Virus record (IMG/VR): IMGVR_UViG_3300008267_000055
Length of the DNA stretch: 20,000 nt
Direction: 5' to 3' (one strand)
From: an uncultured virus (IMG/VR IMGVR_UViG_3300008267_000055)
Taxonomy: Duplodnaviria > Heunggongvirae > Uroviricota > Caudoviricetes
Positions within the stretch are counted from its first letter, which is position 1; each line of letters begins with the position of its first letter. Of this stretch, positions 5,527 to 19,651 are shown piece after piece. The translations under genes and the position numbers were made by a program. The notes below the pieces were generated by a model. The model saw nothing but the letters and a program-made list of their open reading frames with translations. It had not been told where the DNA came from and searched no databases.

Positions 5527-6333
5527 ATGAAGCAACCAGACATGTTTCTGTGTCCGATCGACGATCTCATCCCCGATCCAACACAACCACGTCAGTTCTT
5601 CGACGAGGAAGAGCTGAAAGCCCTGACTGACAGCATTCGAGAGAAGGGCGTCCTCCTTCCTATTATTGTAAGGGAGCACCCTAGGAGCCCAGGTAAGCTT
5701 GAAATCGTTGCTGGAGAGCGCCGCTGGCGCGCTAGCAAGCGTGCAGCGCTAGATCACGTCCCAGTCATAAAGCGAGAGCTCTCAGACAAGGCTGCTTTCG
5801 AGATCGCGCTGATTGAAAATACCCAGCGGGCTAGCCTCAATCCTATTGAGGAGGCGCTCTCCTTCAAGCGGCTCTACGAAGAGCACAACATGCCGTACGT
5901 GGAGGTTGCCGAGGTCGTCGGTAAGTCTACGTCTTACGTTAGCAACACGCTTCGCTTGCTAAATCTTGAAGACGCCTACCAGCGCTTGGTTATTAATGGT
6001 GAGCTTAGCGCCAAGGGCGCTCGCGCGCTGCTAGCAGTTCCGAGCGGAACCTTGCGCGATGAGCTTGCGAACCTCATGCAGAAGGGTATGGGTCCTGCCG
6101 AAGCTGAGACCTGGGCTCGTGAGATGCAGCAACGGTCAACGGCTAGGGCAAGACCCTCTCGCCTGACTGGGCGAAAACCAAATCAACCACTTTTCGACCT
6201 CCTGCTCTCCAAGCTCAAAGAGAGGTATGGTACAGGGGTTGCCCTCGACACGAAAGCAAGGTCCGGATCTGTTTCTTTTGCTTTCAAGGATTTGCACGGT
6301 TTGTACTCTCTGTTTAAGGAGCTGACCAAGTGA
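5527..6333 (+). CDS. parB: ParB/Spo0J-family partition protein
   Basis: Contains QPRQFFDEEELKALTDSIREKGVLLPIIVR, the Arg patch VAGERRWRA, ALIENTQRASLNPIEEA and an HTH (VAEVVGKSTSYVSNTLRLL). Confidence 0.93.
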   Translation: MKQPDMFLCPIDDLIPDPTQPRQFFDEEELKALTDSIREKGVLLPIIVREHPRSPGKLEIVAGERRWRASKRAALDHVPVIKRELSDKAAFEIALIENTQRASLNPIEEALSFKRLYEEHNMPYVEVAEVVGKSTSYVSNTLRLLNLEDAYQRLVINGELSAKGARALLAVPSGTLRDELANLMQKGMGPAEAETWAREMQQRSTARARPSRLTGRKPNQPLFDLLLSKLKERYGTGVALDTKARSGSVSFAFKDLHGLYSLFKELTK

Positions 6334-6875
6334 TGCTGGACTACTACAACGGACTTATCGCGGAAGCTTACGAGATCGCAGCCCTGAAGGGCTGGCACGA
6401 TGGGGAAGACTTCCCAATGCTGAACCGGTCGATCATCTCGTCTAAGCTTGCGCTGATTCATAGCGAGCTGACCGAGGCTTTTTACGACTGGAGCAAGGCT
6501 GGTAAGAAAGTCACCGACGACGTGATGCTTGAGCTCTCCGACGTGGCGATTCGCACCTACGACCTTCTCGGGTCCATGCGGATTCGATTCGGAGAGAACG
6601 ACTTCGCCAGCAAGCCAGGTGTTACTTCGCCGCAGGATCCAAGCGATTTCGCGATGCAGCTCTTGGACCTGCACTCTTGCGTCAGCGAGGCTTTGGAAGA
6701 CCTTCGTCGCAAGGACACCGCTTTTCCAGGCGGAGTCTCGGTGAAGCTGCTTTATCTGCTGACTCTCCTCTACGGGACAGCCATCGCTCAGGGTTCGGAC
6801 CTGAGCGTCTTTGTCGCCCGGAAAATGGAGTACAACCGTCTTCGGACGCATCGTCACGGAGGGAAGCTTCTCTGA
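6333..6875 (+). CDS. MazG-like NTP pyrophosphohydrolase with an internally duplicated domain
   Basis: KLALIHSELTEA...ELSDVAIR, then a second copy LLDLHSCVSEALEDLRR, and C-terminal KMEYNRLRTHRHGGK. The start overlaps the parB stop (TGATG); GTG at 6330 is an alternative start. Confidence 0.8.
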   Translation: MLDYYNGLIAEAYEIAALKGWHDGEDFPMLNRSIISSKLALIHSELTEAFYDWSKAGKKVTDDVMLELSDVAIRTYDLLGSMRIRFGENDFASKPGVTSPQDPSDFAMQLLDLHSCVSEALEDLRRKDTAFPGGVSVKLLYLLTLLYGTAIAQGSDLSVFVARKMEYNRLRTHRHGGKLL

Positions 6876-7474
6876 TGAGTGCTGCAAGACTCAATAGGAG
6901 CAGGGACCTCGTTAAAGGCCTTCTGCCTGAGATCAGGCAGCACCTGAATGAGTGCCCAGAGACCTCCAAGCTCATACCGCTTGATAACTGGGCGGCCATG
7001 CTCGGTCTTACCAAAGGCAGCTTCTACTACACCCTGAAGACCGAAGACCCGGTCTTCTTCAGGCAGTACGTGGATGGTCTTGCCGGGTACTACACGCGTC
7101 TTCGCGAGCTTGTCATGGCTGCGAAGACAACCAGCGCGTCTGACCTCTCCAACATCATGGTGGCTTACGACGTCTCCTTCGACACCCTGCAGGCTATCGC
7201 TAGGCGAAATGGCAGGCACGCGCCTTCTCGCAAAACGATTATCGGAGAAAAAGTAGCTGCCGTGGCTAAGGTCGGGATGACGGTAAAAGACTTGGCTGCG
7301 GCAGCCGGGCTCCACGCCGGCTCGCTGAAGTCGGCTAAAAATCTCGGCCGCCTCGACGGCTTTGTTGAGTTCGAGCAGGTTCTTAGAGCGTATCCCGGCG
7401 GATCCGCCAACAGGGTTGCGGTCGTTTCTTGGGTTAAGGAGATAAAGCTTGGGCGCCGTAAAAATAAATCATGA
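6875..7474 (+). CDS. Hypothetical, possibly HTH DNA-binding protein (paralog A)
   Basis: ATG at 6875 is coupled to the upstream stop. Shares LDNWAAM and DxAxAAG blocks with the next gene. Confidence 0.7.
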   Translation: MSAARLNRSRDLVKGLLPEIRQHLNECPETSKLIPLDNWAAMLGLTKGSFYYTLKTEDPVFFRQYVDGLAGYYTRLRELVMAAKTTSASDLSNIMVAYDVSFDTLQAIARRNGRHAPSRKTIIGEKVAAVAKVGMTVKDLAAAAGLHAGSLKSAKNLGRLDGFVEFEQVLRAYPGGSANRVAVVSWVKEIKLGRRKNKS

Positions 7475-8048
7475 CGACGTTGCAGCGATGCTGCCCGAGA
7501 TGAAGGAGCACCTCGCCAGCCTGCAGCCCTACGAGCGCGCCATCAGCCTGGACAACTGGGCTGCCATGGTCGGTCGCACGTATAGCCAGCTGCGCGTGGC
7601 GATGAAGTACCTCGATAAGACTTTCTTGAAGGCCTACACCGACCACCGGCGTGAGTACTATCGCTCGATGGAAGCTGAGCTCAAGGCGCTACCTGACTTC
7701 ACGATCAAGTACACACAGTCCGTGATGGACAAGTACGGGATCACACGCAAGGACGTGCAGCGGGTGAGGCTGCGCCTCAACCTTAAATGCGCTGCTAAGT
7801 ACTCTCGTGGAGCCGAGCGCGTGCACCCATTCCTGCAGCCTGGCTTGTCCCTGATGGACGTAGCCGAGGCTGCGGGGATGTACCTTTATCAGGTTCAGGG
7901 CTTGCTCAACCGTGGGCATCTGGACAAATACGCAGAGTTCGGCCACGCCAAGCGCCTGTGTCGGAACGGACGCAACCAGCGCGTCGTTGTGGTCGCTCGC
8001 CTCAAAGGAACGGAGAAGTCTCATGATCGAAGCAAGAGTCGTCGCTGA
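7449..8048 (+). CDS. Hypothetical, possibly HTH DNA-binding protein (paralog B)
   Basis: TTG start with AAGGAG 7 nt upstream; paralog of 6875-7474. Confidence 0.7.
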   Translation: MGAVKINHDDVAAMLPEMKEHLASLQPYERAISLDNWAAMVGRTYSQLRVAMKYLDKTFLKAYTDHRREYYRSMEAELKALPDFTIKYTQSVMDKYGITRKDVQRVRLRLNLKCAAKYSRGAERVHPFLQPGLSLMDVAEAAGMYLYQVQGLLNRGHLDKYAEFGHAKRLCRNGRNQRVVVVARLKGTEKSHDRSKSRR

Positions 8049-8871
8049 TAGCACATTCTATGGCCGCCGGCTGATCACGCTCTCGTGTGACTACCCGCGC
8101 TTCATCCATCCGCAGGTCATGACCTACGGCATGATCCGGAAGAGCACGTCGAGCAGCCGCGCCATCCCAGTGAAGCGGCAGCTCGAACTCTCCGCCGAGT
8201 ACGCCTACATCCCTGACGCGTTCTCTAAGAACAAGTCAGGGATGGCTGCCACGGAAGAGCTGAGCGACACGGACTACGCCCACGCCCGCGCCCTGGTGGA
8301 GTCTCACCTCAACTTCACGCGTAACATCGTGGAAAAGCTCGCAGACCTTGGCGTCCACAAGCAGCACGCCAACCGCTACCTCGAGCCCTACCTGATGACG
8401 CGCTGCATGATGACCGGCGCCTACGAAGCCTTCGAGCACCTCATCCAACAGCGCAAGCACGCCAACCTGCATGGTGAGGTGCAGCCTGAGATGTACGAGC
8501 TGGCCTGCAAGATGGACGAATCCATTAAAGCCTCCGAGTCTCAGATCCGTAAATTTCACGTCCCGTATTTTGATGGTGAAAAGCCTACGTACGAAGACGC
8601 CCTTTACGGCATCGCACGCGCTGCGCGGGACAGCTACATGCGCGAGGACGTGAGCTCTGAGTTTATGTCGCGTCTAGAGGCCCTGTGGAACGAAGGCCAC
8701 CTTGGGCCCTTTGAGCACGTAGCCTATTTTGAGTCCGTCGGATGCTACGCGGGTCCCTACATTATTCCGGCAGCTACGTCGGACGGGTCTGACGAAGTCA
8801 TGGCTGAGGACCTTTACGGATGGCGCACAGCTCGCCACATCGGACTTGAGAATCTGAAGGAGCTTTTCTGA
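8023..8871 (+). CDS. thyX: FAD-dependent thymidylate synthase-like protein (phage Thy1/ThyX family), divergent
   Basis: MIEARVVADS...YPRFIH...SSSRAIP, LGVHKQHANRYLEPY, VQPEM, HLGPFEHVA. GGAG lies upstream of ATG 8023. Confidence 0.8.
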   Translation: MIEARVVADSTFYGRRLITLSCDYPRFIHPQVMTYGMIRKSTSSSRAIPVKRQLELSAEYAYIPDAFSKNKSGMAATEELSDTDYAHARALVESHLNFTRNIVEKLADLGVHKQHANRYLEPYLMTRCMMTGAYEAFEHLIQQRKHANLHGEVQPEMYELACKMDESIKASESQIRKFHVPYFDGEKPTYEDALYGIARAARDSYMREDVSSEFMSRLEALWNEGHLGPFEHVAYFESVGCYAGPYIIPAATSDGSDEVMAEDLYGWRTARHIGLENLKELF

Positions 8872-9326
8872 TGCCGTACTTCTACATGAAGCAGCACCGA
8901 AATCCGTATTCGGACTATGAATTCCAGGATGCCTACCGGACCGGTACGACCGCCGCGCCGAGTACGACTCCTCCGGTCGAATATCCTCACCCGCAGGACG
9001 AGCGCGCCCCTAAATTCGTGTCTCGCATGGAAGGGGAGGGGCGTAAGTTCGATCAGGGAAAGCCTGATTTTACGCTGCTGCCGTGGGATTCCTTGGCTGA
9101 AGTCGTAAAAGTGCTTCAGTACGGCTGCGAAAAGTACGAGCGGGACAACTGGAAGCACGTCCCGGACGCTTTTCAGCGTTACGAGGCTGCAGGACTGCGT
9201 CACCGGGTGGCCAGGTTGAACGGCGAAGCGGTCGACCCTGAGTCAGGGCTCTCCCATCTGGCGCACGAGGCGTGTTGTCTTCTTTTCCAGCTCTGGCTCG
9301 AGCAGCAGGAAAAATCGACATCCTGA
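8871..9326 (+). CDS. dATP/dGTP diphosphohydrolase domain protein (former DUF5664)
   Basis: GRKFDQGKPDFTLLP...VLQYGCEKYERDNWK...LRH...DPESGLSHLAH. Confidence 0.88.
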   Translation: MPYFYMKQHRNPYSDYEFQDAYRTGTTAAPSTTPPVEYPHPQDERAPKFVSRMEGEGRKFDQGKPDFTLLPWDSLAEVVKVLQYGCEKYERDNWKHVPDAFQRYEAAGLRHRVARLNGEAVDPESGLSHLAHEACCLLFQLWLEQQEKSTS

Positions 9327-10997: not shown

Positions 10998-11351
10998 GTG
11001 ATGAAGCAGCGCAATGTTTATAGCCGGGCTTGGGAACGCTACGAGGCTCTTCTGGAACACCTTGAGTGGTTCTTGGAGAACAATCCCGAGGTCGAGTGGA
11101 ACGCGATGGAGCTGGTTGACGTGCTCGGTACGGACTACAACACTTGGCGGGCCATGGTCCGTTGGTGCCGCGAGCACATCACCCACGTCCCTTGGTTTGG
11201 ATACAGACCGCCAAAAGGTACCGCCCGAAGCGGTACTTATTTTTACCGGTCAGTGGTGTCTCCGAGAGAGTTGGCGGGGCACTCTAAAGAGTGGCAAGCA
11301 GGGTTCCTAGCAGGAATCGAATACGCGAAAGCCGGAGTGGCGAAAAGGTAA
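10998..11351 (+). CDS. Hypothetical protein; 3' end overlaps the tRNA
   Basis: 117 aa with a GGAGG SD downstream of a good promoter. Confidence 0.65.
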   Translation: MMKQRNVYSRAWERYEALLEHLEWFLENNPEVEWNAMELVDVLGTDYNTWRAMVRWCREHITHVPWFGYRPPKGTARSGTYFYRSVVSPRELAGHSKEWQAGFLAGIEYAKAGVAKR

Positions 11352-11413
11352 CCGCAGGGGACTTAAAATCCCTCGCCCTGTGGGGCTTGCGGGTTCGAAT
11401 CCCGCCTCCGGCA
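11331..11413 (+). tRNA. tRNA-Leu(TAA), CCA not encoded
   Basis: Acceptor GCCGGAG/CTCCGGC plus discriminator A; anticodon arm GGGGA-CTTAAAA-TCCCT; long variable arm GCCC-TGTG-GGGC; T arm GCGGG-TTCGAAT-CCCGC. Confidence 0.93.
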
Positions 11414-11456
11414 CGAAGCGTTTACGCCCTGTAAGTAGGCGGGTTAGATCACCCGC

Positions 11457-12578
11457 ATGAATAAGTTCAGAGAAGCACTCACTGACGCTTATCTTGCCAA
11501 GCGCCCCTCGTACGCCAGGTGCCTAGGGCGTCTTGGCAAACGCGCGCCGGAACTCTTGAACGAGTTCGACCGGAACGCCTACGAGACGCTGCTCTCGGAC
11601 ATCCGTCGGTTGGACGGCCTCCTGAAAGAGGCGGCCGTCGACACGGAAAATTACGAGGTCGAGCGGTACACCGTCAACTCTTGGTCCAAGGGGAACTTCC
11701 AGGTCAAGGCGACCCTGCGCGCCAAGGGGAAGGTCTTCAAGATCCCAGATTACGAGCCGCCGCTTTTGGATTTATCCGTAGAGGCTGGTTCAGGGATGAC
11801 AGCGCTCTGCATCCCGGACATCCACTTTGGATTTTTGTGCGAAACCAAGCTCAACGGAGAAATACCGGAGCTGGAATGGAAGACCATCCACGACGAAAAA
11901 GCCGTGGCGGTCGTTTTAGAGGTCGCCCGGCGGTACCAGCCCGAGAAAATCGTGATCTTGGGCGATTTATTGGACCTGCCTGCGCTGTCGCGGTGGGACG
12001 TCGAGCCAAAACACCGCCACCAGACCCTCACGGCGGTAAAAGCGGCGCACGCTTTTCTGAAAAAGCTGCGGGTCGCGTGCCCGGGGTCGAAAATCTTTTT
12101 GCTGGAAGGCAACCACGAGCGGCGGTTGCGGGACTACTTGGCAAAAAATGCGCCGGAGCTGCTGGGGGCGACGAGCGTCCCGGAGCTTTTGGGCTTGGGG
12201 GTGTTGGAAATTACCTACGTCGGGCCCTACGGGACCCGGCTTCCCTTGGAAAAAGGGATTTTCGCCACCCACGGCCATTTAATCGGGCGAAAAGGCGGGG
12301 AGTCGGCCGCAAAAATGCTGGGGGAATACCACCTCTCGACGATTTTCGGGCACACCCACCGCTTGGAGTTGGCGTACCACACCCACTACGACGAGCAGAA
12401 TTTAGGGGGAACGGTATTTTCGATGGGGTGCGGAACTCTGGCCAAATTAGACGGGTCGGTGCCGGGGTCGCAGCACCCAAATTGGCAGCAAGGCTTTGGG
12501 GTGCTCTGGGGCGGGGCCCCTGCTATTTATTTAATCGAGAACGGCCGGTGTCGGATGGAAGGGATTTGGATATCCTGA
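11457..12578 (+). CDS. Calcineurin-like metallophosphoesterase
   Basis: All five motifs are present: PDIH, GDLLD, GNHE, HGH, GHTH. Confidence 0.9.
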   Translation: MNKFREALTDAYLAKRPSYARCLGRLGKRAPELLNEFDRNAYETLLSDIRRLDGLLKEAAVDTENYEVERYTVNSWSKGNFQVKATLRAKGKVFKIPDYEPPLLDLSVEAGSGMTALCIPDIHFGFLCETKLNGEIPELEWKTIHDEKAVAVVLEVARRYQPEKIVILGDLLDLPALSRWDVEPKHRHQTLTAVKAAHAFLKKLRVACPGSKIFLLEGNHERRLRDYLAKNAPELLGATSVPELLGLGVLEITYVGPYGTRLPLEKGIFATHGHLIGRKGGESAAKMLGEYHLSTIFGHTHRLELAYHTHYDEQNLGGTVFSMGCGTLAKLDGSVPGSQHPNWQQGFGVLWGGAPAIYLIENGRCRMEGIWIS

Positions 12579-12618
12579 TTCCTGGTCGACCACGTAGCAC
12601 AATAAAACCTAAAATTAA

Positions 12619-12680
12619 GGCGCGGGCGCAGCCCGCGCCAAAAATAAATTAGCGCGGGCGCAGCCCGCGCAAAAATAAAA
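12619..12680. repeat. Two tandem copies of a GC hairpin followed by an A-tract (terminator-like on the minus strand)
   Basis: GCGCGGGC-GCA-GCCCGCGC followed by AAAAATAAA, at 12620 and 12652. Confidence 0.75.
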
Positions 12681-12973
12681 AACCGGCGAACGGTAAACCG
12701 AGGAGGTTTAGCGTGCGGCGGGGGTTTACGCGCGGCGAAAAAATACCCCAGCAAAAAACACGCGCCCGGGGCCCAGCGGGTCAGGGCGGGCGGGGCGAGC
12801 GGGGATTTTAAAAAACGCGCTTGGCGGGAAGATTAAAAAACATCCTGAAATCGCTTGCGGGGAAATTTTTGTGGGTGGGATGCTACAGGGGCTCAATCCT
12901 GGTCGCGTCGAACACGGTTTGGACTCGCTCACAAGCGGTCGAGAGCGAAAGTGCATGTCACTTGCATTTTCTT

Positions 12974-13002
12974 TTGACATCCGACCCGGGGGGAGTCATA
13001 CT
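12974..13002 (+). promoter_or_regulatory. Strong sigma70-type (early) promoter
   Basis: TTGACA-17 nt-CATACT with a T-rich upstream element; TSS predicted at about 13009-13010. Confidence 0.7.
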
Positions 13003-13009
13003 GCATCTC

Positions 13010-13047
13010 GTCAGCAGGTTCTTTCACAAGTAAATAGCGGGTTGGGC
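13010..13047 (+). repeat. Left arm of a 38-nt long-range inverted repeat
   Basis: GTCAGCAGGTTCTTTCACAAGTAAATAGCGGGTTGGGC, complementary to 13998-14035. Confidence 0.92.
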
Positions 13048-13084
13048 ACCAAACAGGCACGTACTGTGCCGAAGGAAGGTGCTT

Positions 13085-13987
13085 ATGCGAGACGAGTTTG
13101 ACAGTGTGTTCTCCTTCGACGCTCCCGATGAGGGGGTGTTCGTGAGCTTCGTCCCGAAGATCAAGACAAAGCACGGGCGCATCCTCGCGTTGCGGTCGTG
13201 CTTCAGGGGGTCTCAGGGGGCGTCCAACTTCACCGACGCCGTGATGCTCGATCTGACCGATGAGGCCAGAGTCGCGTGGAAGGCGGTGACTGACGAGGCC
13301 TTCAGCGAGCGGGTCACGACCGCTTGCAAAGAGGCGGGCAGGCTCTGGTGGCGCTCTCTCTCGAAAGAGGAGCAGGACGCCACCAAGGCGGAGTGGGAGC
13401 AGGCGAAGCTCGAAGCTGCCGCGCGCAAAGCCGCCAAGGCTGAGCGCAAGGCCAACGACGGGCGAGTCGAAGGGGAGGTCGACGAGGGCAACCTCGGGGA
13501 CCAGATCGACAAGGTCCGGAACGCTGACGCTCCCAAGCCTGACAAGGCGCGGGAGCCCAAGACTCCGGAAGAGTGGCGAGAGCTGAAGAAAGAGGCTCTC
13601 GCGGAAGGTCGGGAGTGGGAGAGTGGGATTCAGCCTGACTTTGAAGAAGCGGCTGAGTTGCTCGCGGACAAGGCGCTGTCCAAGGCCTTCAAGCCTGGCG
13701 ACAAGCGCAAGACCGACATCCAGTTCAAGGCGGTCTGGGACGCCGTGAGGCACGGCTACCCGGTCTGGCACGACGACGATGTTGCAGACTTGTTCGGTCC
13801 CATCGGGCTGGCAAAGTGGAAGGCCGACAAGGCCGAACACGGAGAGAGCTCGAAGAATGACAAGGTTGTCCGCATGGCGCGCTTCAGAGTCGGGCGGGAG
13901 TTGGAGGTCATCCGCGAGGAGGCTGCCAAGAGAAGCAAGACCGAGTATGAGCGCATGATGGACGAGTTGGTCATCGACGCTAGCTGA
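13085..13987 (+). CDS. Hypothetical charged protein, first gene after the strong promoter
   Basis: About 300 aa, AAGGAAGG upstream, GC3-rich codons; GTG at 13079 is an alternative start. Confidence 0.8.
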   Translation: MRDEFDSVFSFDAPDEGVFVSFVPKIKTKHGRILALRSCFRGSQGASNFTDAVMLDLTDEARVAWKAVTDEAFSERVTTACKEAGRLWWRSLSKEEQDATKAEWEQAKLEAAARKAAKAERKANDGRVEGEVDEGNLGDQIDKVRNADAPKPDKAREPKTPEEWRELKKEALAEGREWESGIQPDFEEAAELLADKALSKAFKPGDKRKTDIQFKAVWDAVRHGYPVWHDDDVADLFGPIGLAKWKADKAEHGESSKNDKVVRMARFRVGRELEVIREEAAKRSKTEYERMMDELVIDAS

Positions 13988-13997
13988 GTAGAATGAA

Positions 13998-14035
13998 GCC
14001 CAACCCGCTGTTTACTTGTGAAGGAACCTGCCGAC
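13998..14035 (+). repeat. Right arm of the 38-nt long-range inverted repeat
   Basis: GCCCAACCCGCTGTTTACTTGTGAAGGAACCTGCCGAC; 35 Watson-Crick pairs, 2 G-U and 1 A-C with the left arm. Confidence 0.92.
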
Positions 14036-14086
14036 ACCGCTCGCACGGTGCGAGCGGTTTGGCGAGAAACGAGAGGAGACGAGACC

Positions 14087-14305
14087 ATGACGAACGTGTT
14101 TATCAGCATCCGCGACGGAGAGAAGCTTGACAACCTGCTGGCAGAGCAAGGCCTGCAGAAGTGGAACGTGGAGGCGGTCGACGCCTCCACGTGGTCGGGC
14201 GGTCCGATCCTCGGGCGCCTCCCCGAGTCAGGGCTGCTCGTGACCGGCAAGCTGGAGACTCCGTGGCACGAGGAGTTCTGCGGCCTGCAGATCCTCGCAG
14301 TCTGA
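14087..14305 (+). CDS. Hypothetical protein, TWSGGP/TPWHEEF family (paralog of 17260-17484)
   Basis: AGGAG SD, 72 aa, clear paralog elsewhere in the window. Confidence 0.85.
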   Translation: MTNVFISIRDGEKLDNLLAEQGLQKWNVEAVDASTWSGGPILGRLPESGLLVTGKLETPWHEEFCGLQILAV

Positions 14306-14309
14306 GGCA

Positions 14310-14377
14310 GGCCGAAACCTAGGGGCGACGCGAGTCGCCCCTACGGTCCGCGAGTAGGTGCTCGCGCTGATGAGGCC
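14310..14377 (+). ncRNA. Hammerhead ribozyme, type II; predicted cleavage after C14348
   Basis: GGCC-GAAA-CC-TAGGGGCGAC[GCGA]GTCGCCCCTA-C-GG-TC^-CGCGAG[TAGGTG]CTCGCG-CTGATGA-GGCC. The full catalytic core and stems I-III are present. Confidence 0.88.
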
Positions 14378-14390
14378 AAAGGAGACGAAC

Positions 14391-14474
14391 ATGAGAGACG
14401 CAGGCGAGCTGGTCGTGGGTTGGGTGGTCGGTGGGATCTTGTGGTTCGGTCCGTGGTGGTACTTCCTGAGCTGA
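14391..14474 (+). CDS. Small hydrophobic peptide (27 aa)
   Basis: AAGGAG SD; MRDAGELVVGWVVGGILWFGPWWYFLS*; not in the ORF track. Confidence 0.6.
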   Translation: MRDAGELVVGWVVGGILWFGPWWYFLS

Positions 14475-14580
14475 AGCCACCACGTACAACGCGAGCGCGA
14501 CGCAAGCTGATCGTCGCGCTCGCTCGCTCGCTCGCTCGCACGTTGCGCGCTGAGCCTCAACCCTTGACTCGGAGAACAGC

Positions 14581-14793
14581 ATGAAAGAGACGTTCACCTT
14601 CCTCGCGCTCGCGTTCGCGCTCGCGTTCGCGATCACCCTTGCGGACGTCGCGCTCGCGCATCGCATGCGCGAGATCCCGATGCTGCTCGCGTGCGAGGTG
14701 CTGCTAGGCATCTCGCTCGCTGGTCGCGCCATCGCTTCCGATCGCGAGCGTCGCGCGGAAGCGAGAGAGCGCGAGCGCGAGAGCTCTCGCTGA
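14581..14793 (+). CDS. Small putative membrane protein
   Basis: GGAG SD; hydrophobic segments and a charged tail. It lies in low-complexity DNA, so the call is uncertain. Confidence 0.5.
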   Translation: MKETFTFLALAFALAFAITLADVALAHRMREIPMLLACEVLLGISLAGRAIASDRERRAEARERERESSR

Positions 14794-14800
14794 AGCAAGA

Positions 14801-14836
14801 GAACGCAGTAGAACGCGCGCGCGTTCTACTGCGTTC
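14801..14836. repeat. Perfect 36-bp palindrome with an alternating CG core
   Basis: GAACGCAGTAGAAC-GCGCGCGC-GTTCTACTGCGTTC. A further half-site ACGCAGTAGAA(CG)8 lies at 14890-14916. Confidence 0.9.
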
Positions 14837-15685
14837 GTTCGTTCGTTCGTCCGTTCACTCGTTCGCCAGCTTGGCAGCTTGCCAGCTCGACGCAGTAGAA
14901 CGCGCGCGCGCGCGCGCTCGCATGCGTGCGTGCGTGCGTGCGTGTGCGCGCGTCAACGAGCTTCGACCTCGTTCGCGTGCGCGCAAGAACCTTGCAAGAT
15001 CAAGACCTTGCAGCACAAGCGCGTCGCGTTCGGAACGCCGTCCAGGGCGGACTACGACGTGACGTAGGGGGTCTTGCCCAGGGGGCGGTTGCTAACAGTC
15101 GCGATCCTCGCGACATTCTGAAATACGAAGATCTCGAAAATCGCGCGCGGCGCGCTTCGCGCGCCAACCGAGCGCGCCGGGCCCAGGGGGCCCGGCGGCC
15201 GCGCACTGACGCTCAGTGGTACCAGGAGTACCGCTGGGTGCGCGGCGCGACCGCTCGCTGATTCCTGCCCGCTGCTCTGTGGTAGTTCGTTGGCTAGCTT
15301 TCTAAACTGTGCCTATGAACAAAGTGAATTACGAACAATTCCAATGCGCGCGCACCGCGAGGTCGCGCTGCTCTCCAACTACGAAGGGAGGGTGGGGCCC
15401 CGTAAGCTCACGTTAGATAGAGCTATCTATTGCGGTGAGTTTATTTCTTGAGTGTTGCTAGTAGGAAGAGATGCGTTGCTTCGCGTACTGTCGTAGGTGT
15501 TCGCTGCAGAATCGTAAGTGGGGGTCCAGACATCCTGAAACGCGCCTATTTCCACAGCGGGTACCAGGTCCCCCTCGCCCCCCGCCCTAAGGGAGATATT
15601 GCATGAGTTGTGGAACATGATGAAAATGCAACAATTCAAAAATACCCGCTGAAGGAGGGTTTACAAAATAACTATCAGGTAGACA

Positions 15686-15768
15686 GGGGGGGATGGGTCG
15701 AGGAGGGGGTGGTTGGGGTGGCCTGGGGTAGGGGGAGAGGGTAGCTTGGTGTGTGTGTGTGTGTGTGT
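15686..15768 (+). repeat. G-tract cluster followed by a (GT)10 microsatellite
   Basis: Seven G-runs of 3 nt or more in 15686-15741; (GT)10 at 15749-15768. Confidence 0.85.
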
Positions 15769-15801
15769 CCTTCAATGTATTCTCTAGAAAGGAGTAGGAA
15801 G

Positions 15802-15990
15802 ATGGCAGTCATGGGAAATACGTACAAGGTTGAACTGAAGAATGGCCGTGGATCGGTCATTGGTATGCGGCCGAATGGGATCGAGTTCGAGTGGCTGGTG
15901 ATTCCGAAGGAGCTGGTTCAGAAGTTCATGAACGGAGAGATGGACGAGAAGGAAGTGATTCAGAGAACGCGTTGGCCTGAGTGGGTGTGA
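15802..15990 (+). CDS. Small hypothetical protein
   Basis: AAAGGAGTAGGAAG-ATG leader shared with later genes; 62 aa. Confidence 0.75.
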   Translation: MAVMGNTYKVELKNGRGSVIGMRPNGIEFEWLVIPKELVQKFMNGEMDEKEVIQRTRWPEWV

Positions 15991-16080
15991 GGAAGAAATA
16001 ATAAGTCGAGCTCATCACACGGTGTGGTGGGCTCGGCTTATGTGTCGGGTTCGAGAAGACAGCCTGAAAGGAGTAGGAAG

Positions 16081-16434
16081 ATGAAGGTCGGAAAGGTTGA
16101 GTGGGAAATGCTGGATGGAATGGTTCGGGAGGAGATGGAGGAGAGCAAGTGGGCTGAGAACGAGAAGAGTTACGACCTGGCTTTGGAGTTGTTCAAGAAC
16201 ATTATCTGGGCTCGGGAAATGATCGAGCACATGGAGAACAAGGTTCAGGGTAGGGAGAAGATCGAGCTGAAGCAGGCGAAGCTTGCGTACCAGCTGGTGG
16301 ATATCGGGCTTCAGAGAAGTCAGATCACGAAGGCGGAGGAGATGAGCTTCCAAGGAACTCTGAAGATCATCGGGATTCAGGGTGACATGGTTCGTCGGGG
16401 GGTTTGGGAAAATCCTCCGGTGATCTTGATCTAA
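16081..16434 (+). CDS. Hypothetical protein
   Basis: CTGAAAGGAGTAGGAAG-ATG leader; 117 aa. Confidence 0.8.
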   Translation: MKVGKVEWEMLDGMVREEMEESKWAENEKSYDLALELFKNIIWAREMIEHMENKVQGREKIELKQAKLAYQLVDIGLQRSQITKAEEMSFQGTLKIIGIQGDMVRRGVWENPPVILI

Positions 16435-16512
16435 ATAATAAAGAAATAATCAATCGGGTCCATCACGCGGTGTGGTGGGCTCGATTGTGTCTGCGTAGTT
16501 GAGGAGGTTGGT

Positions 16513-16779
16513 ATGTTTCATCAGTGGCTGGTGGTCGAGGCGATCAAGAACATTCTGTCGGTGTGCGGGCAGGACATGGTCCACACGGCCGTGGTTGAGG
16601 AGTGGGACGGTACGCAGGATATCCTCAAGGTCGAGGGCCTTGGGAACGTTGACTGCAGCGTTGCCGAGGAGGTGGTGCTGGACATCGTGTACATGGATGG
16701 GCAGCGCCAGACGATGAGGGCGGCAGAGCTCAGAACGCTGGTGAAGGGTTGGCTGGGAGCCGACATCGAAGTGTTCTAA
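16513..16779 (+). CDS. Hypothetical protein (VEEWDG motif)
   Basis: GAGGAGG SD; 88 aa. Confidence 0.75.
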   Translation: MFHQWLVVEAIKNILSVCGQDMVHTAVVEEWDGTQDILKVEGLGNVDCSVAEEVVLDIVYMDGQRQTMRAAELRTLVKGWLGADIEVF

Positions 16780-16864
16780 AAAATAATCAGCCGGGTCCAT
16801 CACGCGGTGTGGTGGGCTCGGCTTTTTTTATTAGGGGCTAGAGACAGACTGAAAGGAGTAGGAA

Positions 16865-17173
16865 ATGAAGATCGAAATCGAAATCATCGAGCGTTGCGAA
16901 GAAGGAAAATACGATCAGATCCTCGGGAGGATTGGAGATATCCTCTGGGAGGGTGAGCTTGATGCCGAGGAGGCGAAGCGCATCAGCTACGGGTCGACTG
17001 CTGGGAAGTTCAGAATCATCGGGGATGGCATCGTCAAGGATTACGACGACGAGTTCGATTTTGGTGAGGAGAACGAGGACGATTACGAAGAAGCGGTGGC
17101 GGTTGAGGAGTGGGACGGCTGCCAGTGGGTGTGCGTCGTAACGAACAAGTGGATCACCGACGTGGTGAAGTGA
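16865..17173 (+). CDS. Acidic hypothetical protein (VEEWDG motif)
   Basis: CTGAAAGGAGTAGGAA-ATG leader; 102 aa, D/E-rich. Confidence 0.8.
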   Translation: MKIEIEIIERCEEGKYDQILGRIGDILWEGELDAEEAKRISYGSTAGKFRIIGDGIVKDYDDEFDFGEENEDDYEEAVAVEEWDGCQWVCVVTNKWITDVVK

Positions 17174-17259
17174 AATAAGGAATAATCAGTCGGGCTCATC
17201 ACGGTGATGGGCTCGGCTATTTATCGGGTCAGAAAAAACAATCTGAAAGGAGTAGGGAA

Positions 17260-17484
17260 ATGAGCAAGGAAGTTTTCATCAGCATCAAGGACGGAGAGGC
17301 CCTGGACGAGCTCTGCAAGGAGTTCAACCTGGAGAAGCACCAGGTGGTGGTTTGTAATTATGAGACATGGTCGGGTGGACCGTACCTGAAGAGACTGAAG
17401 GACTGTGACCTTCTGGTGGCTGGTGGGTTGAAGACTCCATGGCACGAGGAATTCTACCGTCTGGAGATTTTGAACTGGGACTGA
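17260..17484 (+). CDS. Hypothetical protein, TWSGGP/TPWHEEF family
   Basis: Shared leader; paralog of 14087-14305. Confidence 0.85.
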   Translation: MSKEVFISIKDGEALDELCKEFNLEKHQVVVCNYETWSGGPYLKRLKDCDLLVAGGLKTPWHEEFYRLEILNWD

Positions 17485-17563
17485 GAGCAACCTAGAAAAA
17501 TAAATCGCCCGGCTTCGAAAGGGGTCGGGCGGTTTGGTTTTATAAATAGTCAGGAGAGACAGT

Positions 17564-17815
17564 ATGAAAGAAGGTGTTTTCGAGATCTTTCTGGCGTTCG
17601 TGATTTTTGGAATTTGTCTGGGTGTACCAGCAATGGTCGGGAGCTGGGCTGAAGGAGAAAGAAGAAGAGAAGAACTGACAGAGCAGAAAAATAGTCTGGA
17701 AGAAGAACTGAAAGTTCTGAGCCAGAAGGTGGACGGAAGAAGAGTGGGTCCTTTGCTTAAGATCCTTGATCTGGAAAATGAGATTAATCGACTGGAAGCG
17801 GAGATGAGAAGATGA
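17564..17815 (+). CDS. Small protein with N-terminal TM segment and coiled coil
   Basis: AGGAG SD; hydrophobic residues about 5-26, then an E/K/R-rich region. Confidence 0.75.
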   Translation: MKEGVFEIFLAFVIFGICLGVPAMVGSWAEGERRREELTEQKNSLEEELKVLSQKVDGRRVGPLLKILDLENEINRLEAEMRR

Positions 17816-17904
17816 CTGGCATGTTGCTTGGGTACGTTGGATTTATTTTTGTTATGCCGATGGGTTTGGCTTTTGTCTTTAATCGTAAGGGAGGTGTGAG
17901 ATGA
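17812..17904 (+). CDS. Small hydrophobic peptide (30 aa)
   Basis: ATGA overlaps at both ends; MTGMLLGYVGFIFVMPMGLAFVFNRKGGVR*. Confidence 0.6.
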   Translation: MTGMLLGYVGFIFVMPMGLAFVFNRKGGVR

Positions 17905-18113
17905 GAATGCCGTTGATGTTTGTGAAAGAGAATAAGTGCCCTGAGTGTGGGGAAACCGTCAGGACCCATGTGGATGACGATGGGTTTGGACAGTACTGTG
18001 GAAATAAGAAGGAGTGTGGGTGGAACCAGGGAAATGCCTATGGAGAGAGGTGGCTGAGAAAGAACAATAAGGAAAGGATGGTCTGGGAAAGCATGTGGAA
18101 GAGGGGAGATTAA
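17901..18113 (+). CDS. Small Zn-ribbon-like protein
   Basis: GGAGG SD; CPEC...CGNKKEC. Confidence 0.75.
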   Translation: MRMPLMFVKENKCPECGETVRTHVDDDGFGQYCGNKKECGWNQGNAYGERWLRKNNKERMVWESMWKRGD

Positions 18114-18131
18114 ATAATAAGGAGAAACAAT

Positions 18132-18269
18132 CTGAAAAGTCTTAAAGAAAAAATAGAAGAGCTGAGGAGGGCAGCTGAGAAAATCCCTCAGGAAGAAAGG
18201 GAGCGTCGGGCAAGAGAAGAGGCCCGGCTGGTAATAAATGATCAGGAACAGAAGAGGAGGCTGAGATGA
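18132..18269 (+). CDS. Putative CTG-initiated coiled-coil peptide (45 aa)
   Basis: AAGGAG-7 nt-CTG; LKSLKEKIEELRRAAEKIPQEERERRAREEARLVINDQEQKRRLR*; the stop overlaps the next ATG. Confidence 0.45.
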   Translation: MKSLKEKIEELRRAAEKIPQEERERRAREEARLVINDQEQKRRLR

Positions 18270-18541
18270 GGAACTGTGACTGCTGTTACGACTGGGAAAC
18301 AGACATGGTTATTGATGACCGAGAGGCTTGGGAGATTGAGGAGGTTGAGATGCATAAGGAAGAGGAAAAGATCTGGGCACGTGCGAAAGCAGAGGGTCTG
18401 ACTTTTAATCAGGCAAAGGAAGTGATGGATGAGGAGCGCACAAAGGAACTGGTGGATGCCTATGAAAAAGAGATAGCGGAAATCATGAGGAAGGAAAACG
18501 TGAGCCGAGAGAGAGCGGAAGACATCTACATCCCGTTCTGA
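18266..18541 (+). CDS. Acidic hypothetical protein
   Basis: GAGGAGG SD; N-terminal CDCC. Confidence 0.75.
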   Translation: MRNCDCCYDWETDMVIDDREAWEIEEVEMHKEEEKIWARAKAEGLTFNQAKEVMDEERTKELVDAYEKEIAEIMRKENVSRERAEDIYIPF

Positions 18542-18631
18542 TGGGTAAGGAATAAATGGTCTGGCTCAGAAATGGGTCAGGCCATTTATTTCGTCTAGAA
18601 AAAACAATCTGAAAAAATAAAGGAGGAAAAT

Positions 18632-18961
18632 ATGGACGATCTGGATATTTGCGGGTGCTCGACATGTGATTTTTGCCGGGCTGGTGTGGATGACGATGAC
18701 GGTACGGAATATGTGGAGGGAGAGATGGAAAGCCAGGAGGATATGATGGGCCGGATTACGGAAGGAGATATCAGGGAGTGGGAGAAGAAGGAGAACGAGG
18801 ATATTGAGAAGGAGGCCAGAAAAGAATTGGAGAAGAAGGAGAACGAGGATATTGAGAAGGAGGCCAGAAAAGAATTCGTCAGGGACAATGGGCGGGAGCC
18901 GAGTGTGGAAGAGCTGGCGAAGAAGGGGTTGGAGGTTTGGTACCGTCGCTGGGTTGTCTGA
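18632..18961 (+). CDS. Acidic hypothetical protein with a 16-aa tandem duplication
   Basis: AAGGAGG SD; CGCSTCDFC; 48-bp direct repeat at 18781-18828 and 18829-18876. Confidence 0.78.
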   Translation: MDDLDICGCSTCDFCRAGVDDDDGTEYVEGEMESQEDMMGRITEGDIREWEKKENEDIEKEARKELEKKENEDIEKEARKEFVRDNGREPSVEELAKKGLEVWYRRWVV

Positions 18962-18996
18962 AAATAAACCTTGAGGGAATAAATAAGGAGGTAGGT

Positions 18997-19179
18997 ATGT
19001 GGGATTTTGATTTTGAGTTCGAGGTCCAGGCTAGCGACGCTTGGAGAAGAAGAAGAATCGAGCGGAAGCTGGAGAAGGTGGAGCGGGTGATCCGGGACGA
19101 GTTCGAGCTGGGACGCGAGGAGGCTTGCCCGGTCTTGATGAGAAGAGCCCTTGAGCTGCGGGTTCAACTGGAAGGCTGA
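18997..19179 (+). CDS. Small hypothetical protein
   Basis: TAAGGAGGT SD before ATG 18997; 60 aa. Confidence 0.72.
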   Translation: MWDFDFEFEVQASDAWRRRRIERKLEKVERVIRDEFELGREEACPVLMRRALELRVQLEG

Positions 19180-19242
19180 GAAATACCGAGTAGGGCAGGT
19201 AGGCCCGAAAGGGTCTGCCTGTTCTTTCTATCAGGAGGAAAT

Positions 19243-19428
19243 ATGTTCGTGGTTGAGAAGCTGGGTGAGGATGTGTGGGTGGCCGTGGCTTGGGAAGAGG
19301 GTGGTGAGATTTTCCGGATGGTAGGGAAAAGAGAAGACGTCAACGAAATGAGCTGTGTGGTTCGGAACGAGGCTGAGTTCGCAACCAAGGAAGAGGCCGA
19401 AGAGGCTCTGAAGGAAATGGAGGTCTGA
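19243..19428 (+). CDS. Small acidic hypothetical protein
   Basis: AGGAGG SD; 61 aa. Confidence 0.72.
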   Translation: MFVVEKLGEDVWVAVAWEEGGEIFRMVGKREDVNEMSCVVRNEAEFATKEEAEEALKEMEV

Positions 19429-19429
19429 G

Positions 19430-19651
19430 ATGGTGACCGTGGCTTTTATCGAAAATACCGAGGCGACCGTGAAGGTCATGCGAGACGACAACGAATGGTT
19501 CTTCCTGAAGGACACTGGAGGATTTATCGTCCTCAAGGATCAGGGAAAGAAAATCATCTGCTCGAGGTGGGATGACTGCCATCGTCAGGTCGAAATCACG
19601 AACGCTCAGATGATGTGGGCTAAGAAGTGGGTCAGAAGGCTCGGCGCCTGA
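19430..19651 (+). CDS. Small hypothetical protein
   Basis: GGAGGT SD; 73 aa. Confidence 0.72.
   Translation: MVTVAFIENTEATVKVMRDDNEWFFLKDTGGFIVLKDQGKKIICSRWDDCHRQVEITNAQMMWAKKWVRRLGA

What the first reader, a model, noticed from the sequence alone, without database searches (positions are those of the whole stretch)
13010..14035. A whole gene enclosed by a 38-nt duplex that starts at the predicted transcription start
Seen: 13010-13047 pairs with 13998-14035 (35 Watson-Crick, 2 G-U, 1 A-C), enclosing only the roughly 300-aa ORF. The left arm begins 8 nt after the -10 box, and the right arm begins 11 nt after the stop. Two of the three deviations are G-U in plus-strand RNA, which favours an RNA role. 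The right arm overlaps the next hairpin (14030-14063), so the two folds partly compete. Known: pre-rRNAs are excised from such stems by RNase III, and some type I toxin mRNAs use 5'-3' pairing. Inference: a panhandle mRNA that is excised, end-protected or circularised for sustained or gated expression of an early effector.
Basis: partly seen in the sequence, partly recalled or inferred. Interest (0 to 1): 0.8.

Follow-up and report, generated by a model that had tools for sequence, protein, structure and literature searches.

The report
Phage gene inside rRNA-style helix
A phage protein gene is bracketed by two 38-base stretches that pair in its messenger RNA, and the first stretch carries the signal bacteria put in front of their ribosomal RNA, so the message is probably made and trimmed like a ribosomal RNA precursor.

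Summary
13010-13047 and 13998-14035 are a unique 38-nt inverted repeat (35 Watson-Crick, 2 G.U and 1 A.C in plus-strand RNA) enclosing one 300-aa ORF. The left arm starts 8 nt after a conserved -10 box; the right arm ends directly at a terminator-like hairpin.

A related metagenome contig (L001, ORF 97% identical) keeps the helix through 6 changes on both sides of a pair. It also keeps both G.U pairs. This supports a selected plus-strand RNA helix over a DNA repeat.

New here: arm positions 9-19 are a boxA-type motif. The L001 version, 20 nt long, lies just upstream of 16S or 23S rRNA, on the same strand, in 31 of 40 bacterial loci examined. In two real rrn operons that motif sits in the leader strand of the 16S leader-trailer helix.

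A more distant phage relative (L002) keeps the boxA leader but has no trailer arm and carries a different ORF.

Best reading: an rRNA-style unit (promoter, boxA leader, leader-trailer helix, terminator) wrapped around a phage orphan gene. It probably recruits Nus factors and is cut by RNase III. Nothing supports circularisation, toxin-type gating or competition with the next hairpin. Earlier notes of this scan report similar phage helices in other genomes.

The parts
12974..13002 (+). Sigma-70-type promoter: -35 TTGACA (12974-12979), 17-nt spacer, -10 CATACT (12997-13002)
   Evidence: Best promoter-like site in the whole window, 10 of 12. The number of such sites in the window is not above chance (8 against 7.1 +/- 2.4). 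In L001 both hexamers are 12/12 identical, while the spacer has 5/17 changes and 13003-13009 has 4/7 changes.
13010..13047 (+). Left arm: leader strand of the 38-bp helix, starting at the predicted transcription start
   Evidence: Covariation with the right arm in L001. Outer 21 nt have 8 changes against L001; inner 17 nt have 0.
13018..13028 (+). boxA-type motif GTTCTTTCACA inside the left arm (arm positions 9-19)
   Evidence: Only match to GYTCTTTNANA in the window (expected 0.39, so not significant alone). It matches the published gamma-proteobacterial consensus GYTCTTTAANA at 10 of 11 positions (consensus from PMC5725501). The L001/L002 form of this stretch is identical to a 20-nt motif lying upstream of 16S or 23S rRNA in 31 of 40 bacterial loci examined.
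13056..13070 (+). Small 5'-UTR hairpin (5 bp, 5-nt loop)
   Evidence: Present in the folds. The stem is unchanged in L001 while the loop changed.
13072..13087 (+). Shine-Dalgarno (AAGGAAGGT) and ATG start codon, outside the helix
   Evidence: Read from the sequence. The database proteins begin at this ATG.
13085..13987 (+). ORF, 300 aa, orphan, predicted all-helical
   Evidence: Substitutions against L001 by codon position are 10/6/48. There are 10/300 aa differences in this frame against 43/252 in the antisense frame. No family or solved relative. Only 5 sequences in 2 clusters among 5.8 billion clusters. Only itself among 1.84 billion representatives. AlphaFold2 mean pLDDT 52.3.
13998..14035 (+). 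Right arm: trailer strand of the helix, starting at the 11th nt after the stop codon
   Evidence: Outer 21 nt have 6 changes against L001, each mirroring a left-arm change; inner 17 nt have 0.
14036..14061 (+). Terminator-like hairpin (10 bp, 3-nt loop) followed by a short T run
   Evidence: In the MFE and centroid folds beside the long helix. One stem pair changed on both sides in L001. The T run has only 3 T, so the consensus terminator scan did not list it.
14087..14305 (+). Next gene (72 aa, no family), outside the helix
   Evidence: It differs from L001 at 53 of 218 nt.

Best explanation
The 300-aa phage gene sits in a transcription unit built like the 16S part of a bacterial rRNA operon. 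A host-type promoter starts the RNA at or next to 13010. Nucleotides +9 to +19 of the RNA are a boxA-type element, single-stranded while the gene is transcribed. I infer that it loads NusB/S10 and the other Nus factors onto RNA polymerase, as in rrn operons, and keeps the leader tethered near the RNA exit. When the trailer (13998-14035) emerges about 1 kb later, it pairs with the whole 38-nt leader. The adjacent hairpin (14036-14058) then ends or stabilises the transcript. The resulting 38-bp helix leaves no free 5' end. I infer that host RNase III cuts it, releasing an mRNA whose two ends stay paired by the inner, sequence-conserved 17 bp. SHOWN: the complementarity and its covariation; conservation of the promoter hexamers; the ORF is coding; the leader is identical to a motif that sits in rrn leaders; that motif lies in the leader strand of real 16S leader-trailer helices. 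INFERRED: the transcription start, Nus factor loading, RNase III cleavage, and the effect on mRNA stability or yield.
For: (1) The helix is real and unique. Predicted duplex energy is -69.2 kcal/mol here and -68.4 in L001, and -44 for mixed arms. It is in the MFE and centroid folds of both transcripts. (2) Window against L001: of 38 pairs, 30 are unchanged, 6 changed on both sides and stay paired, none changed on one side while staying paired, and 2 carry the single A.C mismatch, which moves from position 4 to 5. With the 3' partner slid by 1-3 columns there are 0-1 double changes and 36-41% pairing, against 97%. (3) Both U.G pairs (positions 13 and 26) are kept in both phages. They would be A.C mismatches in minus-strand RNA. 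(4) Flanking non-coding DNA diverged: 53/392 upstream, 8/37 in the 5' UTR, 9/50 downstream. The inner arms have 0/34 changes and the promoter hexamers 0/12 (alignment). (5) The helix begins at the predicted +1 and ends at the base of the terminator-like hairpin. Of 40 loci examined, 29 have it about 50-230 nt upstream of the 16S 5' end on the same strand, and 2 in the spacer upstream of 23S. In two operons the leader including the motif pairs with the 16S trailer: -84.9 against -46.7 +/- 5.0 for shuffled trailers, and -102.3 against -78.4 +/- 5.7. None of 79 other phage loci holds the 13-nt core. (7) Published knowledge (passages read): boxA is necessary and sufficient for forming the rrn antitermination complex; leader-trailer helices are 25-40 bp and hold the RNase III site; tethering of boxA is proposed to promote helix formation (PMC10250234). 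The consensus is GYTCTTTAANA, and boxA also regulates non-rRNA genes (PMC5725501).
Against: Only two sequences carry the helix, so all covariation rests on one comparison. In the shuffle control, 5 of 500 shuffles reached the observed values. The window's own boxA differs from the rrn-type form at 3 positions (arm positions 16, 18, 21). Its 20-nt form has 0 matches in bacterial genomes, so it may bind Nus factors poorly. A match to GYTCTTTNANA in 20 kb is not significant by itself (59 of 200 shuffles have at least one). 9 of the 40 bacterial loci show no rRNA next to the motif; 2 of these have under 120 nt of DNA downstream, the others look like chance matches. boxA lies only 8 nt from the predicted start, and there is no boxB-like hairpin before it. 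The terminator-like hairpin has only three T after it. There are no RNA data, the host is unknown, and the transcription start is predicted only. Relative L002 shows the leader can exist without any trailer, so the two features are separable.
Confidence: 0.6

Rival explanations
1. A plain 5'/3'-UTR helix that only protects the mRNA ends, as in B. subtilis hbs. On this view the boxA likeness is an inherited relic of the leader and no longer recruits Nus factors in this phage.
For: The helix and its covariation need no boxA. The window's boxA has 3 derived changes, and its 20-nt form is found in no bacterial genome. A 14-bp 5'/3'-UTR interaction that limits RNase Y cleavage is documented for hbs (PMC5737220, abstract).
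Against: L001 keeps a 20/20 match to the rrn leader motif. L002 keeps it too, preceded by a small hairpin, as several 16S leaders are (by eye). The first 7 boxA positions are unchanged in all three phage sequences. Real rrn leaders place the same motif in the same strand of the same kind of helix.
Confidence: 0.2
2. A DNA-level feature: either the arms are recombination sites of an invertible on/off segment or ends of a mobile cassette, or they are kept alike by gene conversion or template switching rather than by selection on RNA.
For: 38-nt inverted repeats flanking about 1 kb resemble invertible segments and terminal inverted repeats. Conversion between the arms could also produce mirrored changes. 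L002 has a different ORF in this slot, so the slot is exchangeable.
Against: No recombinase or transposase was found among 35 ORFs of the window scanned against Pfam; the rest of the phage is not available. No direct repeat flanks the arms. Both contigs have the same orientation (2 of 2). The antisense frame is not conserved (43/252 aa differences), so there is no alternative gene. Conversion would have to copy positions 6-10 and 16-21 while skipping the T/C differences at 13 and 26, which both phages keep. A DNA repeat has no reason to start at +1 and end at a terminator.
Confidence: 0.08
3. A translational or lifetime gate of the hok or icaR kind: pairing of the 3' end with the 5' end controls ribosome access to the start site.
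For: In partial transcripts of 80-150 nt, the inner end of the left arm can pair with part of the Shine-Dalgarno region. icaR shows that 3'-UTR pairing can block a ribosome-binding site and create an RNase III site (PMC3868564, abstract).
Against: The Shine-Dalgarno site and the ATG lie 25-38 nt outside the helix. Computed Shine-Dalgarno accessibility with the arm free or sequestered showed no consistent change in either phage. The ORF is 300 aa, not a small toxin. No antisense promoter was found.
Confidence: 0.05
4. Two copies of a protein-binding site (operators), at the promoter and 1 kb downstream, that loop the DNA.
For: The left arm covers +1 to +38, a usual operator position. L002 has the leader copy alone.
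Against: Six mirrored substitutions in genomes whose ORF differs at 64 of 903 nt would need the protein's specificity to change six times. Uncontacted positions should drift independently, but none does. The arm has no internal symmetry.
Confidence: 0.03

Closest known systems
Leader-trailer helix (processing stalk) of bacterial pre-16S/pre-23S rRNA with boxA and the rrn antitermination complex (PMC10250234, passages read)
   Same: A promoter-proximal boxA-type motif in the leader. A long helix (38 bp; published range 25-40 bp) between leader and trailer encloses the whole product. Covariation includes G.U pairs. In the two operons tested here, the motif lies in the leader strand of the helix.
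   Different: The helix encloses a translated protein gene, not an rRNA. The helix is nearly perfect, whereas the host helices are interrupted. boxA is only 8 nt from the start and has no boxB-like hairpin. A terminator-like hairpin follows directly. It is phage-encoded.
Lambdoid phage nut sites (boxA + boxB, N protein, host Nus factors; PMC2800207, abstract only, in the listings)
   Same: A phage uses a boxA-type RNA element near the start of a transcript, and so presumably host NusB/S10.
   Different: No boxB hairpin and no N-like protein were identified. nut sites are not part of a gene-enclosing helix.
boxA-regulated non-rRNA genes such as suhB (PMC5725501, passages read)
   Same: boxA in the 5' UTR of a protein-coding gene.
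   Different: In suhB, boxA represses translation and promotes Rho termination. No 3' partner strand is described.
B. subtilis hbs mRNA 5'/3'-UTR interaction (PMC5737220, abstract) and S. aureus icaR (PMC3868564, abstract)
   Same: Pairing between the two UTRs of one bacterial mRNA. In icaR the duplex is an RNase III substrate.
   Different: Those pairings are 14 bp or a short motif, against 38 bp. icaR pairs with the Shine-Dalgarno site, which is not in the helix here. Neither has boxA.
RNase III double-cleavage stems in E. coli mRNAs (PMC6212723, passages read)
   Same: Intramolecular stems with two cleavage sites on one transcript. Distances of 16-1080 nt were reported.
   Different: The median distance there is 58 nt. 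A stem spanning a whole gene from +1 to the terminator is at the far end of that range.

Membership tests
rrn-type leader-trailer unit (boxA + processing stalk) | boxA sequence in the leader | tested here: met
   The window matches GYTCTTTAANA at 10/11 positions. The L001/L002 form is identical over 20 nt to a motif upstream of 16S or 23S in 31 of 40 bacterial loci.
rrn-type leader-trailer unit (boxA + processing stalk) | Long complementary leader and trailer enclosing the whole product, kept by covariation | tested here: met
   38 bp. 6 of 38 pairs changed on both sides against L001, and none was lost apart from one moving A.C mismatch. Present in the MFE and centroid folds.
rrn-type leader-trailer unit (boxA + processing stalk) | The enclosed product is an rRNA | tested here: not met
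   A protein-coding ORF under purifying selection (codon positions 10/6/48). No Rfam family in 12000-16000 reaches its gathering score.
rrn-type leader-trailer unit (boxA + processing stalk) | NusB/S10 binding and formation of an antitermination complex | not testable with these tools
   Needs binding or ChIP assays; the host is unknown.
rrn-type leader-trailer unit (boxA + processing stalk) | RNase III cleavage in the helix | not testable with these tools
   A 38-bp near-perfect duplex is a plausible substrate, but there are no RNA data.
Lambdoid nut site | boxB hairpin next to boxA, and an N-type protein | tested here: not met
   Only 8 nt precede boxA. The next hairpin (13056-13070) lies 28 nt after boxA. 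No N-like family was found among 35 ORFs.
5'/3'-UTR pairing that masks the ribosome-binding site (icaR type) | The 3' UTR pairs with the Shine-Dalgarno region | tested here: not met
   The helix ends at 13047 and the Shine-Dalgarno site is at 13072-13080. No consistent accessibility change.
Type I toxin mRNA with 5'-3' fold-back (hok type) | Small toxic peptide ORF plus an antisense RNA gene | tested here: not met
   The ORF is 300 aa. No promoter-like site on the minus strand in 11000-16000.
Invertible DNA segment (Hin/Gin/Cin type) | A linked site-specific recombinase and both orientations in the population | tested here: inconclusive
   No recombinase among 35 ORFs of the 20-kb window, but the rest of the phage was not available. 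Same orientation in 2 of 2 contigs.
IS or MITE with terminal inverted repeats | Target-site duplication, a transposase, and several copies | tested here: not met
   No flanking direct repeat, no transposase, and a single pair of arms in the window. Copies elsewhere in the genome could not be checked.

The most novel reading that the evidence does not exclude
The unit is a self-limiting antitermination cassette. boxA at the 5' end turns RNA polymerase into a fast, termination-resistant rrn-type complex for exactly one gene. The trailer is an 'anti-boxA' that strips boxA from NusB/S10 by pairing with it a few nucleotides before the terminator hairpin, which switches antitermination off at the gene's end. 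At the same time it closes the mRNA into an end-protected, RNase III-trimmed loop. On this reading the relative L002, with boxA but no trailer, is the open-ended version that reads through its strong intergenic hairpins. Together with similar helices noted elsewhere in this scan, this would make hijacking of the host rRNA synthesis and processing route a recurrent way for uncultivated phages to express single genes.
Probability: 0.2. Interest if true: 0.85.

Novelty: new variant of a known kind. Interest (0 to 1): 0.68.

Why it matters
boxA, Nus-factor antitermination and leader-trailer helices are regarded mainly as machinery for rRNA, plus lambdoid N-dependent nut sites and a few autoregulated genes. 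A protein gene of a non-lambdoid, uncultivated phage wrapped in a complete rRNA-style unit would show that phages copy the host's ribosomal RNA signals to make and shape an mRNA.

It would be a compact natural test bed for the proposal that tethered boxA helps distant strands find each other. It is also a natural design for an insulated, end-protected bacterial mRNA. The type of boxA may hint at the host, although no host could be named here.

Tried and rejected
More homologues
- The ORF has no relative in IMG/VR contigs, in the phage GenBank set by blastn or tblastn, or in one genome per species.
- The arm sequence gave 0 matches in IMG/VR.
Contigs of P0002, P0003 and P0005 could not be fetched.
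- No whole genome is held for the window.

ORF function
- Nothing in Pfam, PHROGs, NCBIfam, PADLOC or the PDB sequence profile.
- The protein atlas gave no usable hit.
- The AlphaFold2 model was too weak (pLDDT 52.3), so no fold search was run.

RNA-level checks
- No Rfam family in 12000-16000 reached its gathering score.
- Translation gating: Shine-Dalgarno accessibility with the arm free or sequestered showed no consistent change. Rejected.
- Competition with the next hairpin: not in the folds and not conserved. Rejected.

Host and relatives
- The window's own boxA variant gave 0 bacterial matches.
- The boxA-plus-inner-arm string gave 5 matches, none of which carries the full boxA. No host could be named.
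- 80 loci around metallophosphoesterase relatives were fetched. Only L002 shares the leader, and it has no trailer and no homologue of the ORF in its 43.5-kb record.

Literature
- Searches for a phage mRNA panhandle or a boxA-bearing gene-enclosing helix found no description. The library lacks most subscription journals, so this is not proof of absence.
Full report
**1. The observation**

The window carries a 38-nt inverted repeat, 13010-13047 and 13998-14035, with 35 of 38 positions complementary. Searched with up to 3 mismatches, the left arm finds only itself and the right arm. None of 200 dinucleotide-preserving shuffles gave two matches.

Read as plus-strand RNA, the three deviations are A.C at arm position 4 and U.G at positions 13 and 26. 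All three are transitions, so the 2:1 split says little by itself.

The arms enclose one ORF: ATG 13085, stop 13985-13987, 300 aa.
- A sigma-70-type site, TTGACA-17 nt-CATACT, lies at 12974-13002. It is the best in the window at 10 of 12, although the number of such sites is not above chance (8 against 7.1 +/- 2.4).
- The left arm starts at the 8th nt after the -10 box.
- The right arm starts at the 11th nt after the stop.
- The right arm ends where a 10-bp hairpin (14036-14058) begins.

The claim that the right arm competes with that hairpin is not. The minimum-free-energy and centroid folds of 13010-14066 contain the whole 38-bp helix and the hairpin side by side.

**2. Context**

The window is from a tailed phage with no close cultured relative.
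- Genes found: portal, head protease, ParB, MazG-like pyrophosphatase, ThyX, a dATP/dGTP diphosphohydrolase domain, a Dps-like ferritin, a metallophosphoesterase and a tRNA-Leu.
- The portal is about 30% identical to portals of large Bacillota myoviruses.
- No whole genome is held.

The ORF is an orphan.
- No Pfam, PHROG, NCBIfam, PADLOC or PDB relative.
- Five sequences in two clusters among 5.8 billion clusters.
- Only itself among 1.84 billion representatives.
- A weak, all-helical AlphaFold2 model with pLDDT 52.3, so I ran no fold search.

**3. A second copy of the locus shows covariation**

The ORF is coding. It differs from L001 at 64 of 903 nt, distributed 10/6/48 over codon positions. 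That gives 10 of 300 amino-acid changes, against 43 of 252 in the antisense frame.

The arms in L001 (711-748 and 1700-1737) are again 35/38 complementary. Of the 38 pairs:
- 30 are unchanged.
- 6 changed on both sides and remain Watson-Crick (positions 6, 7, 10, 16, 18, 21). Five of the six involve transversions on both strands; position 10 is a transition pair.
- None changed on one side while staying paired.
- 2 carry the single A.C mismatch, which moves from position 4 to 5.

Controls, both:
- With the 3' partner slid by 1-3 columns, there are 0-1 double changes and 36-41% pairing, against 97%.
- In the shuffle control, 5 of 500 shuffles reached the observed values.

Both U.G pairs are retained in both phages.

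Energies and folds:
- Predicted duplex energies are -69.2 and -68.4 kcal/mol for the cognate arms and about -44 for mixed arms.
- The helix is in the MFE and centroid folds of the L001 transcript too.

Neighbouring non-coding DNA is much more diverged: 53/392 upstream, 8/37 in the 5' UTR and 9/50 downstream.
- The outer 21 nt of the arms changed at 8 and 6 positions, always in step.
- The inner 17 nt have 0 of 34 changes.
- The promoter hexamers have 0 of 12 changes, beside 5 of 17 in the spacer and 4 of 7 between the -10 box and the arm.
- One pair of the terminator-like hairpin also changed on both sides.

**4. RNA or DNA?**

Mirrored changes could in principle come from conversion between the arms. 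Several points argue against that.
- Conversion would have to copy positions 6-10 and 16-21 while skipping the T/C differences at 13 and 26, which both phages keep.
- Those differences are harmless U.G pairs only in plus-strand RNA.
- The helix starts at the predicted +1 of a conserved promoter and stops at a hairpin. A DNA repeat has no reason to do this.
- No recombinase or transposase is among the 35 window ORFs scanned.
- No direct repeat flanks the arms.
- Both contigs have the same orientation.
- The antisense frame is not conserved.

I put DNA-level readings at under 10% each. They cannot be excluded without reads or the rest of the genome.

**5. The left arm is an rrn-type boxA leader**

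Earlier notes of this scan on other phage genomes mention boxA-like arms in similar helices. This made me look, and I then tested the idea on this locus.

A 72%-identical metallophosphoesterase in IMG/VR locus L002 is followed by a homologous regulatory region. This includes a leader like the left arm. In L002:
- The ORF is unrelated, at 365 aa.
- No complementary partner exists anywhere in the 9.3 kb held.
- The small membrane peptide further downstream is shared (48% identity).

I then searched the 20-nt L001/L002 form of the arm (positions 8-27) in one genome per bacterial species.

I examined 40 of these loci with Rfam. The first 20 were picked for having full flanks. The other 20 were the rest of L082-L120.
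- In 29, the motif lies about 50-230 nt upstream of the 5' end of a 16S gene on the same strand.
- In 2, it lies in the spacer upstream of 23S.
- 9 show no rRNA. Two of these have under 120 nt of DNA after the motif.

In two operons fetched in full, the leader including the motif pairs with the 16S trailer:

| Operon locus | Leader-trailer duplex (kcal/mol) | 40 shuffled trailers |
|---|---|---|
| L203 | -84.9 | -46.7 +/- 5.0 |
| L204 | -102.3 | -78.4 +/- 5.7 |

So in real rrn operons this motif sits in the leader strand of the leader-trailer helix. As a control, none of 79 other phage loci holds the 13-nt core.

The published gamma-proteobacterial boxA consensus is GYTCTTTAANA (PMC5725501, passages).
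- The window has GTTCTTTCACA at 13018-13028, a 10 of 11 match.
- L001 and L002 differ from the consensus at the same single position, and there they agree with the rrn leaders found here.

With L002 and the bacterial leaders as outgroup, the window lineage changed arm positions 16, 18 and 21 on both strands, and the L001 lineage changed position 10.

**6. Mechanism proposed**

Published work (PMC10250234, passages) states three things.
- boxA is necessary and sufficient to form the rrn antitermination complex.
- Leader-trailer helices of 25-40 bp flank 16S and 23S and hold the RNase III site.
- Tethering of boxA to NusB has been proposed to keep the leader at the RNA exit until the trailer emerges.

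The phage unit has the same parts in the same order around a protein gene. I therefore propose this sequence of events:
1. Transcription starts at about 13010.
2. boxA (+9 to +19) loads Nus factors while it is single-stranded.
3. The ORF is transcribed and translated. The Shine-Dalgarno site and ATG lie outside the helix, and a 10-nt spacer after the stop keeps a terminating ribosome off the helix.
4. The trailer pairs with the entire leader.
5. The hairpin at 14036-14058 ends or caps the RNA.
6. RNase III trims the helix, leaving an mRNA with both ends held in the conserved inner 17 bp.

Complementarity, covariation, promoter conservation and the identity of the motif are shown. The start site, Nus loading, cleavage and the effect on expression are inferred.

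**7. What speaks against it**
- All covariation rests on one pair of sequences.
- The window's own boxA variant is derived, and its 20-nt form occurs in no bacterial genome searched.
- The short consensus alone is not significant in 20 kb.
- boxA is unusually close to the start.
- The hairpin has only three T after it.
- There are no RNA data and no known host.
- L002 shows that leader and trailer are separable.

**8. Comparison with known systems and novelty**

The unit works like an rrn leader-trailer unit but is not one, because it encloses an mRNA.
- It lacks the boxB hairpin and the N protein of lambdoid nut sites.
- It shares 5'/3'-UTR pairing with hbs (14 bp; PMC5737220, abstract) and icaR (PMC3868564, abstract), but it is far longer, does not touch the Shine-Dalgarno site and carries boxA.
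- RNase III stems with cleavage sites 16-1080 nt apart (median 58) are known in E. coli (PMC6212723, passages).

My literature searches found no phage protein gene described in a boxA-bearing leader-trailer helix. The library is incomplete, so this is not proof.

The scan's own earlier notes report similar helices in other uncultivated phages. I did not check those notes.

I rate this a new variant of a known kind.

Noticed in passing
window 12620-12679: Two tandem copies of a perfect GC hairpin, each followed by an A run on the plus strand. They therefore look like minus-strand terminators, yet no minus-strand gene lies nearby. Both are conserved in L001.
   Followed up: partly
window 12700-12880: The intergenic region upstream of the promoter is built of G-rich blocks alternating with A/T tracts. 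L001 differs here by insertions of 5, 18 and 3 nt, one of them an extra repeat unit. The block nearest the promoter is also conserved in L002. Possibly regulator sites or bent DNA.
   Followed up: partly
L002 6455-6480: In the relative without a trailer, boxA is directly preceded by a small GC hairpin, as in several bacterial 16S leaders of alignment A7 (judged by eye). This is a boxB-boxA-like arrangement in a phage leader.
   Followed up: partly
L002 7694-7746, 7995-8050, 8178-8232: Three copies of a hairpin with a stem of about 25 bp, one after each of three consecutive genes.
   Followed up: no
window 14391-14474 and L002 8075-8161: A 27-28-aa hydrophobic peptide gene conserved between the two phages (48% identity), while the neighbouring small genes are not detectably related.
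   Followed up: partly
window 14801-14953: A perfect 36-nt palindrome (14801-14836) and an exact 21-nt repeat at 14803 and 14890, next to runs of 4-nt units (CGTT, CGCG/GCGT).
   Followed up: no
window 15500-19500: G+C falls to 46-53% and GC skew rises to +0.3 to +0.5. The region holds many small, acidic ORFs with no Pfam match, and no PHROG match for the three that were scanned.
   Followed up: no
window 6330-9326: A nucleotide-pool cluster: a MazG-like pyrophosphatase, a ThyX-like protein and a dATP/dGTP diphosphohydrolase N-terminal domain. It might point to a modified DNA base; not examined.
   Followed up: no
window 11331-11414: A tRNA-Leu (anticodon TAA) between two phage genes.
   Followed up: no
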